A stretch of 64,000 bases of DNA. Origin: Eledone cirrhosa (lineage: Eukaryota). The first letter of the stretch is position 1, and each line of letters begins with the position of its first letter. A program made the position numbers and the translations under genes. Under the pieces are notes generated by a model that had not been told where the DNA came from, ran no database searches, and saw only the letters and a list, made by a program, of their open reading frames with translations. Location: NCBI GenBank assembly GCA_964016885.1, contig OZ024741.1:17546001-17610000 (forward strand), given 5' to 3'. Below are positions 2,961 through 9,079 of the stretch, one piece after another.

Positions 2961-3821
2961 ATTATCTCTTTCTCTTAATTTCGAGTATATTTTTTTACCG
3001 GCCACCTTCCTGGTGGCAAGGTTGTAAAAGAAAAGAAATTGTCATCCCTTGAATCGCAAGAATGTTTTGCAAATTTTGAAGGTTCCAGCTATTGCAGCCA
3101 TTTGTAGACTATGAATTAGGGAGCTTCGCTTTTTGTCCGCAAATCCAAGTTCAGTCATATTTTGGTCCAAGCTGGTTGGTATATAACCCGTAGCTCCAAT
3201 AATGAGGGGTATGAAGCTAAAGGTGTATCTTGGATACTGGATTTGTAAACTCCTCATCAATGGTCCGTAGATGTCATCCTTCTCCTGTATTTTTCTGACA
3301 ACGTTTACATCAAGTGGGCAGCTGATCTCCACAACATAACACGTTTTCAATGTGTGGTCCCAAACAACAATATCAGGCCGGTTGTGCTTTAATTTTGTGG
3401 CAGTTTTTATTTTCAGGTTCTACCAGTATTCCTTAGTGCCATCTGTCTCAATATATTCTTCCTCGTTTGCTGTTAATTTTGTTTTCCGAAGTGCGTTCCA
3501 GATGGTTCTAGCTATCCCATCGTGTCTCATGGGGAGGTAGTAGCGAGATGACATTCTTTCGCAGCTGGCAACAATGTGGCTTACATCCTCGATCTTTGTT
3601 TTACATAGCCTACATTTATTGTCAGCTGCTGTCCCTCCTCTTTTGTGCAGCAGATATTTGGTAAGGAGTTCTTGTTCCTGTATTGCATAGAGATATCCCT
3701 CAAGGTGTGATGTCATAAACTTGTCGGAACTCCATGCCAGGCTTTTTGAGTGGTTTATCCCCTCTATGGTCTGTGTTTTACGCCTCAAGTATCCATGCAC
3801 AACTTTTTCTGTAAATTGGTC
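2961..3821 (-). mobile_element. R4/Dong-like RLE non-LTR retrotransposon, 3' fragment (family A)
   Basis: EGYLYAIQEQ, CCHC knuckle CRLC..HIVASC, RHD, NRPDIVVWD..VVEISCP (PD-(D/E)XK type); premature stop at 3420; true stop at 3042; 5' end abuts (CATA)n. Confidence 0.85.
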
Positions 3822-3885
3822 TATGTATGTATGTATGTATGTATGTATGTATGTATGTATGTATGTATGTATGTATGTATGTATG

Positions 3886-4493
3886 TCAGGTCATCAGTTG
3901 GTGCTACTTGTAACATGTATCCCAGTACAACCTGTCCCATGGTTGGGTCGTTGGCGACTAAACTGGCAACCCCACCAAGGTTTCTTGGTGAGGAGGGTGA
4001 CTTTCGACATCCTGCAGGACTAAAAACAAAACCTGTCAAAAGGCAAAGGAGCTCTTAAGAGTCAATAGCCATCCAAAATCACCGGGAGAGATGGCCCCTT
4101 AGCCTGTGTCAAGGCAGAATTCTAGGAGAAGGAAAATTCTGATATAACACCTGCAACCCTGATGCTATCCAATGATGTTGACTTGTTCTTCGTTTGGGTA
4201 AATTTCATCTTGGTTAAGAGAGTGGGACTGGCTTTGTGCAGTGCTTTTGCTCACTATAAAAGCTTCACGGCACAGGCATTGCTTTATATCTGGAGATCTC
4301 TCTGCACTTGTCATCACATGGTACCATGGGCCCAGCACTATGTGTCAATTATTGTCACAAGTGTAGTGTTTGTACCAGAGTTTTCAAGTCACTGGCTGGA
4401 CTAAAAAGTCACACTCGTTCAGCGCATCGGTAGGGGTTCTCCTACATGGATATAAAGTAGTGGCCGTTCTCGAAAACGAGTTGGTAGCCATCA
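3886..4493 (+). mobile_element. Non-coding RTE-derived bipartite element (subfamily A) with (TGTA)n tail
   Basis: Near-identical copies at 7249-7619 and 40653-41228; RTE-5'UTR-like TCTAGGAGAAGGAAAA; terminal hairpin CTCGAAAACGAG, then TAGCCATCA and (TGTA)n. Confidence 0.7.
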
Positions 4494-4681
4494 TGCATGT
4501 ATGTATGTATGTATGTATGTATGTATGTATGTATGTATGTATGTATGTATGAATGTATGTATATATGTATGTATGTAATTACGTATGTATTTATATATGT
4601 ATGTATGTATATATGTATGTATATATGTATGCATGCATATATGTATGTATGCATACATGTATACATATATATGTGTGCTAA

Positions 4682-5050
4682 TCTATATAGCTAAAACAGA
4701 ATGTCTGTCTGACTCCTTAAAACTCGAGAACCACCCAACCGACTGTTTTCAAACATTGCACATCTAATATTTATGGTCCTGTGAGTGTTTTGAGCAAAGA
4801 AATTGATTTTTTTTTATTTTCAGAAGATCCCGTTAAGGGTGAAAGCAGCGATTATTTGCTTAAACTTTAATCTGTTATTTTAATATATATATAAACATAT
4901 ATATATATGTTTGTGTACAGATATTTTGCATACACAATAACAAAATATAAACAAAAGTATTTATTTCATGAGGCTCGATAAGGATAAATATATATCTAAT
5001 ATATAAGAACCCTAGAGCAAATCCCGAGCAACGCCGGGCCATTCTGCTAG
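4682..5050 (+). mobile_element. Non-autonomous Helitron
   Basis: A|TC 5' end; subterminal hairpin CCCGAGCAACGCCGGG; CTAG|T 3' end; no TSD. Confidence 0.75.
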
Positions 5051-5080
5051 TATATATCTATATCTATCTATATTAATATA

Positions 5081-5134
<54 letters not shown>

Positions 5135-5149
5135 GTGTGTGTGTGTGTG

Positions 5150-5962: not shown

Positions 5963-6064
5963 TGTATGTACGTACGTATGTATTTACGCATGTATGTATG
6001 TATGTACGTACGTATGTATTTACATATGTATGGATGTATGTATGTATTTACGTATGTATGTATG

Positions 6065-7153
6065 TTCTGGTTTTATAATTTCACAAAGTTTTACCAATAG
6101 AGAGAGAGTCGGTTTCTAACATAGACACAAGATTCTCTTATTGGAATGAATTTACACAACATCAACTAGGTAGATATGTATGCATGCATGTGTTGATATG
6201 GATGTTATTGTATGTGTGGATGTGTATGTTTTGAGTTGTATGTGTGCATGTGTATATGCTTTGCATCTATACTTATGTATATGCAGTTATTAGATGCAAC
6301 ATTTTTGGAATGTTTTACATACTTTTACTGTTCCATTAATGGATTGTACTTGTAATTTCCTAACTAGTTGTGTTCTTTCTATTCCCGTAAAGCCTAGCTT
6401 CTCAATATTTGTATTGAGGCAGTTACTAACATACCCCAGCGCCCCAATAATCACAGGCATAAATCTGAAGGTGTAATCAGGGTGGAGTATCTGCAGATTC
6501 CTCATCAGTTCTGCATAAATATTCTCCTTTTCGCTAATCTTTCATATTATATTGGTATCTGCTGGGCAGCTAATTTCCACTACTGAGCATGCTTTCTTCT
6601 CCCTGTGCCATATCATAATATCTGGTCTGTTATGCCTGCATTTTATTGGGGTTTTTACTGGAACATTCCACCAGTACTCTTTCATATTATGTACACGGAT
6701 GTCTTCCACATTGCTGTAACTTTTAATGTGTTTATTATTGGGGCTATCTTTTTTACGAACTGCATTGTACAGTGTTTTGGCCGCTACATCATGCCTCATA
6801 GGTAGATAGTACCGCGATGACATCTTTGGACAGCTGCTGATGACATGGGTGATATCCTCGATGTTAGTTCTGCAGAGTCTGCACTTGTTATCACATCTAG
6901 GTGTTTTGCCTGCATCCCTATCTCTTTTGTGAATCTGGTATTTCGTGTTAATCTCCTGTTCTTGGATTGCAAAAGCGTATCCTTCAAAGTGGGAGCCAAT
7001 ATAGCGGTTGTTGGTCCAAGATAGGCTACTTTCCTTATCTATATTACTCTCACTCTGGAGCTTCCTGGCAACATATCCATGCATGAGTTTTTGCTGATAA
7101 GCATGCAGCTTTCATCCATGGATTCTCTGCGATACTGCTGAGCGACTTCTCTG
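6065..7153 (-). mobile_element. R4/Dong-like RLE retrotransposon, 3' fragment (family B)
   Basis: FEGYAFAIQEQ, CRLC..HVISSC, RHD, NRPDIMIW..VVEISCP; disrupted at 6542; stop at 6290; (CATA)n on both sides. Confidence 0.85.
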
Positions 7154-7248
7154 TATGTATTTACGTATGTATGTATTTACGTATGTATGTATGTATGTAT
7201 GTATGTATGTATGTATGTATGTATGTATGTATGTATGTACTTACGTAT

Positions 7249-7619
7249 GTTTTCCTTCTCCTAGAATTCTGCCTTGACAAAGGGTATGGGGTATCCAATG
7301 ACGTTGACTTGTTCTTCTTTTTTGTTAAATATCATATTGGTTAAGAGAGTGGGACTGGCTTTGTGCAGTGCCTTTGCTCACTATAAAATCTTCACGGCAC
7401 AGGCATTGCTTTATATCTGGAGATCTCTCTGCAGTTGTCGTCACATGGTACCATGGGCCCAGCACTATGTGTCAATAATTGTCACAAGTGTAGTGTTTGT
7501 ACCAGAGTTTTCAAGTCGCTGGCTGGACTAAAAAGTCACACTCGTTCAGCGCATCGGTAGGGTTCTCCTACATGGATATAAAGTAGTGGCCGTACTCGAA
7601 AACGAGTTGGCAGCCACCA
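7249..7619 (+). mobile_element. Non-coding RTE-derived element (subfamily A), 5'-truncated with a short 5' inversion
   Basis: Matches about 4165-4493; 7249-7283 is the reverse complement of the CCTTTGTCAAGGCAGAATTCTAGGAGAAGGAAAA block. Confidence 0.75.
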
Positions 7620-7897
7620 TGTATGTATGTACGTATGTACTTACGTATGTATGTATGTATGTATGTATGTATGTATGTATGCATGTACGTATGTACTTAC
7701 GTATGTATGTATGTATGTATGTATGTATGTATGTATGTATGTATGTATGTATGTATGTATGTATGTATGTATGTACGTATGTATGTACGTATGTATGTAT
7801 GTACGTATGTATGTTTTATGTATGTATGTATGTATGTATGTATGTATGTATGTATGTATGTATGTACTTACGTATGTATGTTTGTATGTATGTATGT
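7620..7897. repeat. (TATG)n microsatellite
   Basis: Direct inspection. Confidence 0.95.
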
Positions 7898-8322
7898 TTT
7901 CTCTTTCTCTTAATTTTGAGTATATTTTTTGACCGGCCACCCTCCTGGTGGCAAGGTTGTAAAAGAAAAGAAATTGTCATCCCTTGAATCGCAAGAATGT
8001 TTTGCAAATTTTGAAGGTGCCAGCTATCGCAGCCATTTGTAGACTATGAATTAGGGAGCTGCGCTTTTTGTCCGCAAATCCAAGTTCAGTCATACTTTGG
8101 TCCAAGCGGGTTGGTATATAACCCGTAGCACCAATAATGATGGGTATGAAGCTAAAGGTGTATCTTGGATACTGGATTTGTAAACTCCTCATCAATGGTC
8201 CGTAGATGTCCTCCTTCTCCTGTATTTTTCTGACAACGTTTACATCAAGTGGGCAGCTGATCTCCACAACAGAACACGTTTTCAATGTGTGGTCCCAAAC
8301 TACAATATCAGGCCGGTGTGCT
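7898..8322 (-). mobile_element. R4/Dong-like RLE retrotransposon, 3' fragment (family A)
   Basis: HRPDIVVWD..VVEISCP..KICKTFLRFKG; 3' UTR matches 2961-3041; (CATA)n on both sides. Confidence 0.85.
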
Positions 8323-9079
8323 TTATGTATGTATGTATGTATGTATGTATGTATGTATGTATGTATGTATGTATGTATGTATGTACGCACGTTTGTATGT
8401 ATGCTTAGAGAAGGAGAATGAGAGGGAGAAAGAGTATTTCTGATAAATCAGTCAATTTCCGCTTGTCTACCTAAATATTCACTGGATTCGACTGTTAACC
8501 AAGGTTATGTTGTAATATTCCGTGACATAGTTGAAAGGTTATGACATGTATGAACGTTTCTAAGTGAATATGTTTAGGAGGGAGGTAAGGAACCTTCAGC
8601 AACTTCCCAACCCATCAACAAATGGAATCGTTTCAATTGCTTTATTCTTTCATGTTTTATATTTCTGACTAGTTTCACTGATTGGATTCCAGGTATGTTG
8701 AGATGCCACCATCATTTAGGTAATCATGTAGACTCCAATACTTACAATAGTTTATAACTTTGCCTATTAATCCGTATGGTGAGCAAATGGGGTCCCATGT
8801 GTTGGCCTCCCCACAGCCCCGGTGAACAGGATGGAGAAGGCGTTTCTATGGAGGTGAATAGGGAGGTAGCCCTAGGGCCGTCGGATACGTATTTTATCGA
8901 GCTCTGTTTTGTCATATCACTCGGTTACAGGACAAAACTGAATCCAGAATGAAGCGGTTGTGAAGCCAACTACAGTCCTTGTGTCTGCTATAAGAATGTG
9001 TATACCTTGATGGGTTAAATGAACGTTGAAGTATTGGAATCAAATATTAGGATGCTTTCAAGTATATTATATTATATCT

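What the first reader, a model, noticed from the sequence alone, without database searches (positions are those of the whole stretch)
2961..8390. Strand-polarised retrotransposon 'trains' on (TATG)n: R4-like RLE elements paired with non-coding RTE derivatives
Seen: five RLE 3' fragments from two families all read along the (CATA)n strand. Six non-coding elements all read along the opposite (TATG)n strand and end in a hairpin, G(C/T)AGCCAYCA and (TGTA)n. Four of the five RLE fragments meet a non-coding element head-to-head across a TATG tract (3821/3886, 7153/7249, 27083/26988, 40516/40653). Three also sit tail-to-tail in an RTE-type tail (6065/5962, 7898/7619, 27858/27877). Partners are mixed (A with A, B with A twice, A with C), which argues against one internally deleted element. 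Known: R4-clade Dong elements target microsatellites (TAA), and RTE elements end in short tandem tails. Inference: RTE-type tails create the TATG target, a (CATA)n-specific RLE family colonises it in antisense, and RTE derivatives reinsert, giving a self-feeding microsatellite niche. An alternative is that both strand nicks are primed by different RNAs in a single event.
Basis: partly seen in the sequence, partly recalled or inferred. Interest (0 to 1): 0.75.

Follow-up and report, generated by a model that had tools for sequence, protein, structure and literature searches.

The report
Two retrotransposon clades share one microsatellite
Thousands of copies of two unrelated kinds of jumping gene sit in the same TATG/CATA repeat on opposite strands and border about 70% of the long tracts sampled, likely because each enzyme cuts a different strand of a repeat that was already there, so the chains seen here likely grew one insertion at a time.

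Summary
Two R4/Dong-type families read along (CATA)n: family A has 3,436 exact 3' ends, and 98 of the first 100 have CATA right after. The non-coding elements are bipartite RTE derivatives, a 5' UTR plus the last ~45 nt; autonomous parents were found for two of the window's three families. They read along (TATG)n, 10,425 vs 6. They are not the RLE 5' UTR. The tract is a target, not an RTE tail: over half of RTE-type ends abut (AT)n or mixed repeat, and young copies are followed directly by their target duplication. Private duplications and an empty/filled paralog pair favour sequential insertion. Head-to-head pairs are still about twice as frequent as expected, which is unexplained. 77 of 109 sampled long tracts are occupied. 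One paralogous junction tract is either 9-36 or 72-97 nt, never in between. The scan already noted this system on other DNA of this genome.

The parts
2962..3821 (-). RLE family A (R4/Dong-type LINE), 5'-truncated 3' fragment: CCHC knuckle, PD..D endonuclease, 3' UTR
   Evidence: 97% to a near-full copy; zf-RVT in the paralog at 27085
3822..3885 (.). (TATG)16 tract between an RLE head and an RTE-type head
3886..4494 (+). Non-coding family A, full length 609 nt; RTE-type 5' UTR part plus 3' stem-loop end
   Evidence: 66-73% to the 5' UTRs of coding RTEs; shared 3' end; exact autonomous parent not found
4495..4662 (.). (TATG)n tract, perfect then degenerate
5150..5662 (+). Non-coding family C: bipartite derivative of RTE_C (5' UTR plus last 48 nt)
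   Evidence: positions 3-468 match the RTE_C 5' UTR at 76-86%, and 466-513 match its 3' end at 91-92% (L259/L260)
5671..5963 (+). Non-coding family D, 5'-truncated: bipartite derivative of the young intact RTE_D
   Evidence: 91% to the RTE_D 5' UTR and 93-98% to its last 40-44 nt
5964..6065 (.). Degenerate (TATG)n tract at a tail-to-tail junction; carries one copy of the RLE_B target duplication
6066..7152 (-). RLE family B 3' fragment with its own 21-nt target duplication
   Evidence: 94% to a full copy; 51% protein identity to family A; duplication
7153..7249 (.). (TATG)n tract at a head-to-head junction; holds the 5' duplication copy of both neighbours
7250..7620 (+). Non-coding family A, 5'-truncated, with an inverted 42-nt 5' piece and its own 17-nt duplication
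7621..7896 (.). (TATG)n tract of ~70 units at a tail-to-tail junction
7897..8323 (-). RLE family A 3' fragment
   Evidence: 96%
8324..8403 (.). (TATG)15-20 tract at an RLE head, with no partner beyond
9561..9652 (.). (TATG)23 tract with no element of these families on either side (empty target)
26682..26988 (-). Non-coding family C, 5'-truncated, older (85%)
26989..27084 (.). (CATA)n tract at a head-to-head junction
27085..27858 (+). RLE family A 3' fragment, young (97%), 230-aa open frame
27876..28511 (-). 3' fragment of an older coding RTE family, tail-to-tail with the RLE
39512..39970 (.). Long degenerate (TATG)n array at an RLE_B 3' end
39982..40516 (-). RLE family B 3' fragment
   Evidence: 90%
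40517..40652 (.). (TATG)n tract at a head-to-head junction
40653..41229 (+). Non-coding family A with an inverted 5' piece (40653-40717)
41230..41314 (.). (TATG)21 tract

Best explanation
Two R4/Dong-type LINE families lie on the (CATA)n strand and RTE LINEs with their bipartite non-coding derivatives lie on the (TATG)n strand of the same microsatellite, likely because the two endonucleases nick opposite strands of a pre-existing repeat, so the trains likely build up by separate insertions. Shown: polarity; the bipartite structure and two parents; short target duplications; the same repeat class on both flanks; high occupancy of long tracts; tract length that differs between paralogous junctions with no new element. 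Inferred: the RLE nicks the TATG strand and probably finds the repeat with its N-terminal Myb-like domain. The RTE nicks the CATA (or AT) strand, probably at a T-A bond, and pairs its terminal AU with the primer's AT; this would explain why it uses (GTAT)n and (AT)n but almost never (ACAT)n. Each insertion splits a tract and duplicates part of it. The short seeds later grow to ~20 units, probably by replication slippage past a threshold, and become new targets. Fixed polarity then forces same-class neighbours into tandem and mixed neighbours into head-to-head or tail-to-tail.
For: RTE-type end plus GTATGTAT 10,425 vs plus ACATACAT 6. RLE_A: 86 of the first 100 ends begin with CATA, 98 have it within 14 nt, none has TATGTATG (counted by eye). 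127 adjacent pairs from 150 loci: 63 of 64 mixed pairs opposite (the other is a 5' inversion); 59 of 63 same-class pairs tandem (3 inversions, 1 true exception). Bipartite mapping; intact RTE with AP endonuclease, RT and C2H2 fingers in one 1,181-aa frame. Shared covarying 3' stem-loop. Duplications directly after the RTE end, with 2-nt AT overlap, in L244 and L255. Informative RLE duplications of 12-21 nt in 7 of 83 copies. Both partners have private 16-21-nt duplications in 2 of 38 head-to-head pairs, one of them 6066-7620 of this window; the RTE partner alone has one in a third. RTE own-flank matches exceed shuffles (24 vs 20.0 +/- 1.4, p=0.003); whole-pair matches do not (20 vs 17.5 +/- 1.6, p=0.09). 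Paralogs L168/L170 (99%) differ by one extra non-coding copy inside a head-to-head tract. At 26988/27085 an 85% copy faces a 97% copy.
Against: Head-to-head is in excess: RTE-type neighbours at 28 of 58 visible RLE 5' ends vs 20 of 87 3' ends (p=0.002). In 109 tracts an RTE head faces an RLE head in 13 of 22 cases vs 18 of 60 when the other side is empty (p=0.02); the first subsample alone showed none (4/11 vs 18/58, p=0.73). Partner divergence correlates in head-to-head pairs (rho 0.38, n=42, p=0.013) but not in tail-to-tail (0.07, n=24) or tandem pairs (-0.05, n=20). 35 of 38 pairs have no informative private duplication, and RLE own-flank matches do not exceed shuffles (17 vs 14.9, p=0.16). 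Nick sites are read from junctions, not assayed. The tract samples come from the first ~25 Mb of one contig and include a hot region.
Confidence: 0.78

Rival explanations
1. Coupled insertion for a subset: the two nicks of one event, or a fresh unrepaired 5' junction, are used by an RLE RNA and an RTE-type RNA, and the two cDNA ends are joined through TATG/CATA repeats, giving head-to-head pairs of equal age.
For: Two-fold head-to-head excess; age correlation only in head-to-head pairs; three pairs with gaps of 2-7 nt; 5' inversions show that second-strand priming occurs in the RTE-type elements.
Against: Private duplications in all 3 informative pairs; whole-pair flank matches at shuffle level, and 18 of 38 pairs share under 8 nt between outer flanks; tail-to-tail pairs, which this cannot make, are also mildly enriched (9/26 vs 10/60, p=0.09); from the non-coding side the counts are symmetric (4 head vs 5 tail of 59); the two correlations differ by only about 1.2 standard errors (my arithmetic).
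Confidence: 0.12
2. RTE elements make the target: the RNA carries a (GUAU)n tail that is copied at each insertion, and the RLE then colonises these tails.
For: RTE 3' repeats are a documented source of microsatellites (PMC2887409, abstract). The window copy at 7250 has 12 extra repeat bases before its duplication. In L115 a (TATG)10 stands at an insertion junction where two other host copies lack it.
Against: 55% of RTE-type ends abut ATAT or mixed repeat; flank classes are concordant; no added tail in L244, L252, L255; TATG tracts stand at RTE heads as often as at tails (34 vs 29 of 60); 32 of 109 long tracts are empty.
Confidence: 0.06
3. Passive accumulation: both classes insert broadly and are only retained in repeat-rich, low-selection DNA.
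For: The window and parts of contig 1 are hot spots against arbitrary blocks.
Against: Retention cannot give a 10,425:6 strand bias or a fixed phase at the junction; the young intact RTE copies already show the same flanks.
Confidence: 0.02

Closest known systems
Dong elements of the R4 clade (Bombyx Dong, DongAg, snail DongBg, ostracod Dong1/2)
   Same: Single ORF with RT, CCHC knuckle and restriction-like endonuclease; no N-terminal zinc finger; three-helix Myb/SANT-like N-terminus; insertion into a microsatellite in one orientation (PMC7998251 passages). Dong-R4 is listed as recently active in Octopus vulgaris (PMC13282606 passages).
   Different: Target is (CATA)n, whereas (TAA)n is given for most insects, molluscs and cnidarians. 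The tract is shared with an RTE lineage in antisense. No tree with named Dong sequences could be built.
Bipartite non-autonomous RTE elements (Bov-A, RTESINE1/2, MAR4_MD, RTE-N2_Lch)
   Same: 5' UTR joined to the last ~45-70 nt of an RTE LINE (PMC5786205, parts 1-2 of 5 read; here).
   Different: Several parallel families with one covarying 3' stem-loop; strong, strand-specific use of (GTAT)n and (AT)n. Families A and E have no exact parent found; the first ~250 nt of family D do not match RTE_D.
RTE-clade LINEs whose 3' repeat correlates with the target (e.g. platypus Plat_RTE1 with (TA)n)
   Same: Short 3' overlap with the target and cleavage guided by local sequence (PMC6007223 passages).
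   Different: Here the repeat lies on both flanks and is target, not tail, and the strand bias on the tetranucleotide is about 1,700-fold.
Waldo elements (R1 clade) targeting ACAY repeats
   Same: A non-LTR element specific for the same repeat class, ACAT = CATA (PMC3812793 passages).
   Different: Different clade and hosts (mosquito, earwig); no antisense co-tenant is described in the passages seen.

Membership tests
R4/Dong clade | Single ORF with non-LTR RT followed by CCHC and restriction-like endonuclease | tested here: met
   917-aa frame with RVT_1, zf-RVT and the motif RPDIVV..VVEI; best solved relatives are R2 proteins; an 875-aa frame from the start codon overlaps it
R4/Dong clade | No N-terminal CCHH zinc finger (unlike R2, NeSL, CRE) | tested here: met
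   No such motif in the N-terminus or its alignment with 38 relatives
R4/Dong clade | Diverged Myb/SANT-like domain near the N-terminus | tested here: inconclusive
   Three-helix model, pLDDT 80.6; top matches are Myb/SANT/trihelix domains (Zeste Z 5.8, rmsd 2.5, 64 aligned; ISWI, GT-1, TRF1, DMAP1 Z 5.2-5.5), but these Z values are below the tool's trust level; Foldseek gave no E below 0.001
R4/Dong clade | Placement with R4/Dong/Rex6 in an RT tree | not testable with these tools
   No named R4, Dong, Rex6 or HERO sequence was returned by any tool
R4/Dong clade | Site-specific insertion into rDNA or a microsatellite | tested here: met
   (CATA)n at 98 of the first 100 family A ends; all 29 family B top hits other than the window copy end in CATA-type repeat
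Dong in the narrow sense | (TAA)n target | tested here: not met
   Target is (CATA)n
R4/Dong clade | HDV-like ribozyme at the 5' end (shown for Bombyx Dong, PMC3774820) | not tested
   5' end located but not folded or scanned
RTE clade (parents RTE_C, RTE_D) | One ORF with AP endonuclease and RT, no ORF1, short repeat-like 3' end | tested here: met
   Exo_endo_phos, RVT_1 and C2H2 fingers in one frame; relatives share the layout; no tree with named RTEs
Bipartite non-autonomous RTE | 5' UTR and 3' end of an RTE with the ORF deleted | tested here: met
   Family C fully and family D from position 253 map to parents; family A only at 66-73%
Small-RNA-headed SINE (tRNA, 5S, 7SL) | Small-RNA-derived head | tested here: inconclusive
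   Rfam gave no tRNA, 5S or ribozyme match over 3800-6100; the head matches an RTE 5' end instead; no tRNA scan was run

The most novel reading that the evidence does not exclude
The microsatellite is an active intermediate: retrotransposition itself lengthens the tract in steps of ~15-20 units, and some head-to-head pairs form in one coupled event between an RLE and an RTE ribonucleoprotein. Two unrelated LINE clades would then jointly manufacture and saturate the genome's (TATG)n repeats.
Probability: 0.18. Interest if true: 0.78.

Novelty: new variant of a known kind. Interest (0 to 1): 0.46.

Why it matters
It gives a Dong-type element with a four-letter target beside relatives on TAA, a direct handle on how restriction-like LINEs change targets. 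It also gives an RTE lineage with a near-absolute strand preference on a repeat, in a clade usually treated as weakly specific. About 70% of the sampled long (TATG)n tracts are element junctions, so this microsatellite class here behaves as a mobile-element niche, which matters for marker design and repeat annotation. A young RTE family with many long open frames makes the strand rule testable in vitro. The head-to-head excess and the gap in tract lengths are open, testable anomalies.

Tried and rejected
Non-coding elements as RLE 5' UTR or as one internally deleted element: rejected. L034 was first taken as full length; 29 other copies extend ~560 nt further. The Rfam scan of 3800-6100 gave only repeat-driven hits below gathering score; I could not fit an HDV-like fold to the RTE-type head by eye. 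No family A copy with a complete frame among 20 long copies (longest 875 aa). The top hits to one RTE 3' fragment were a multicopy cassette, not independent insertions, and were kept out of the polarity counts. The all-loci pair count (61 head-to-head, 39 tail-to-tail) mixes samples anchored on 5' ends and was not used for the ratio. The raw ratio in 3'-anchored samples, 36:28, is not significant. Nested-insertion scan: 11 split hosts, only one with a family member inside. Protein Atlas gave no result. Sequencing runs: no RNA holder listed and no run held half the words; no reads were laid, so allele presence/absence is untested. Literature searches showed no paper on a (CATA)n-specific Dong or on antisense co-tenancy. 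Repbase and Kojima and Fujiwara 2004 could not be seen, and no supplements were read, so the target may be recorded there.
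Full report
Observation. The window is G000:C2:17546001-17610000 in a 3.0-Gb animal genome. The closest named relative of the RLE protein is from Argonauta hians (60% identity over 62% of the query), so the host is likely an octopod (inference). 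Two non-coding copies have 5' inversions, and the element at 27876 is a coding RTE fragment. Sixteen arbitrary 10-kb blocks held three short TATG tracts and two clear family hits, so this window is a hot spot.

The RLE families. A long family A copy encodes RT, a CCHC knuckle and a PD..D endonuclease, with R2 proteins as best solved relatives. The N-terminus has no zinc finger and folds into three helices whose best matches are Myb/SANT-type domains at modest Z. That fits the description of R4/Dong in PMC7998251 (passages), but no tree with named elements was possible. Families A and B are 51% identical over 158 aa. Family A has 3,436 exact 3' ends; of the first 100 in position order, 86 begin with CATA, 98 have it within 14 nt and none shows TATGTATG (by eye). 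Full-length A starts after (CATA)n with its own ~635-nt UTR. A long B copy has a different 5' region. Neither resembles the non-coding elements. Informative duplications of 12-21 nt were seen in 7 of 83 RLE copies with both ends in view.

The non-coding elements. A coding element with the same 3' end turned up beside a family B copy. An AP-endonuclease query then found RTE families with many long open frames (150 rows listed). Family C is the 5' UTR (76-86%) plus the last 48 nt (91-92%) of RTE_C. Family D from position 253 is part of the 5' UTR (91%) plus the last 40-44 nt (93-98%) of RTE_D, whose frame holds AP endonuclease, RT and C2H2 fingers. Family A matches these UTRs at 66-73%; its own parent was not found. 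This is the bipartite structure described in PMC5786205 (parts 1-2 of 5). Fourteen 3' ends share a stem-loop with 89% paired cells and changes on both sides in 4 of 8 pairs; I drew the structure from these sequences, so the shuffle control flatters it.

Target, not tail. There are 22,931 exact RTE-type ends followed by RTATRTAT; 10,425 are followed by GTATGTAT and 6 by ACATACAT. One other wrong-polarity phase was not counted genome-wide, but none of 105 sampled family A ends had a wrong-polarity run at the 3' side. In 60 anchored copies the flank classes agree: 25 TATG/TATG and 11 AT/AT against 8 and 3 discordant, with 13 in other classes (p=0.0009). In young RTE_D copies L244 and L255 the duplication follows CCATCAT directly with a 2-nt AT overlap. 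From this I infer a nick at T-A on the CATA or AT strand with AU:AT pairing, in line with the model of PMC6007223 (passages). The opposite polarity would need a T-G nick. The RLE junction implies a first nick on the TATG strand.

How trains form. Among 127 adjacent pairs from 150 loci, mixed pairs were opposite in 63 of 64 and same-class pairs tandem in 59 of 63; four of the five exceptions are 5' inversions. Of 109 distinct tracts with 7 or more perfect units (140 loci before removing duplicates; first ~25 Mb of contig 1), 77 had a family member on at least one side, and 108 of 109 occupied ends obeyed the polarity. The two sampling patterns are phase-biased in opposite ways. Of 38 head-to-head pairs with both 3' ends in view, two have private 16-21-nt duplications on both partners, including 6066-7620 here, and one on the RTE partner. 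Three whole-pair matches of 10-12 nt are at the chance rate (37 of 600 random pairings). Against shuffles, RTE own-flank matches are in excess; whole-pair and RLE own-flank matches are not. Paralogs L168 and L170 differ by one extra non-coding copy inside a head-to-head tract, with about 20 units in the empty and 33 in the filled copy; the direction of change is not known.

Results against the simple model. RTE-type neighbours stand at 28 of 58 visible RLE 5' ends but 20 of 87 3' ends (p=0.002), in both long and short tracts. In the tract sample an RTE head faces an RLE head in 13 of 22 cases, against 18 of 60 with an empty side (p=0.02) and 8 of 26 with an RTE tail (p=0.08). Tail-to-tail shows 9 of 26 vs 10 of 60 (p=0.09). 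The first subsample alone gave no excess, and counts from the non-coding side are symmetric but small. Partner divergence correlates only in head-to-head pairs. Local clustering, easier access next to an RTE promoter, or a coupled minority event could each explain this; I cannot separate them.

Tract growth. A multicopy cassette of at least 5.7 kb carries an RTE fragment, a TATG junction and a family D copy. Of 39 loci examined, 34 showed the junction (five of them read by eye): 26 at 9-36 nt, 8 at 72-97 nt, none between; two pairs are recent duplicates. The long copies need 7 changes on a poorly resolved tree; the one-clade test gave p=0.02 on 17 rows and p=0.07 on 29. So seeds likely grow after insertion, repeatedly. 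Threshold slippage (recalled, not looked up) is enough to explain it; growth coupled to aborted insertion is not excluded.

Comparison. Dong is given (TAA)n in most insects, molluscs and cnidarians. Waldo elements of another clade use ACAY (PMC3812793 passages). HERO and Togen families also include microsatellite users (PMC4640811 passages). Dong-R4 and RTE are known as abundant or active in octopus, with no target stated in the passages seen (PMC13282606, PMC9115989, PMC8967140). RTE tails as microsatellite sources come from PMC2887409 (abstract and outline), the Dong ribozyme from PMC3774820 (passages). Nine searches showed no report of this arrangement; Repbase was out of reach. Seven earlier notes of this scan describe the same system elsewhere in this genome, and one an AAT analogue; I read them after forming my view.

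Verdict. A real, genome-wide, strand-polarised co-tenancy of one microsatellite by R4/Dong-type and RTE-type elements, built mostly by separate insertions. New variant of a known kind; interest 0.46.

Noticed in passing
L172-L201, L387-L406: Multicopy cassette of at least 5.7 kb (copies about 90-96% alike, star-like tree) carrying an RTE fragment, a family D copy and further LINE pieces; its vehicle is unknown. Its TATG junction is bimodal in length.
   Followed up: partly
L241-L258; listing: Very young RTE family (RTE_D) with many ~1,200-aa open frames; UTRs contain variable (TAT)n, poly-T and (GT)n runs.
   Followed up: partly
window 19439-22887 (+): Near-complete LINE with AP endonuclease and RT frames (Pfam), resembling Tx1/L1 types (label recalled); related 3' pieces at 13990-14689 and 23163-23614.
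   Followed up: no
window 1800-2899 (+): 3' part of a different RTE-like family ending in (TGA)7; an insertion with the same kind of end sits inside another RTE copy with a short duplication (L188).
   Followed up: no
window 144-683: Tandem array of 12 copies of a 45-nt unit that resembles the head of a ~180-nt SINE-like element inserted into several RLE and RTE copies.
   Followed up: no
window 32604-37797, 37852-39363, 49590-64000: Large minisatellite arrays: units of 46 and 41 nt, and a third, 14-kb array with a period near 44 nt read from self-alignment offsets.
   Followed up: no
L088-L090: Three 2.5-kb tandem units, each with a non-coding copy head-to-head with an RLE_B fragment: trains can also be amplified by tandem duplication.
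   Followed up: partly
L180:617-769 (element sense): Family A head fused directly to an RTE RT-coding region, a possible template switch or intermediate deletion.
   Followed up: no
L158, L086, L016: Rare polarity switches inside one tract (CATA run abutting a TATG run); L016 holds the only RLE/RLE head-to-head pair seen.
   Followed up: no
L060, L063, L069, L132, L133: Full-length family A copies often have TTATG or TG just before the conserved start, even in AT flanks, suggesting a precise 5' end or a short untemplated addition.
   Followed up: no
window 24084-24307 (-): 3'-truncated copy of a further non-coding family (E) with an (AT)n 5' flank.
   Followed up: partly
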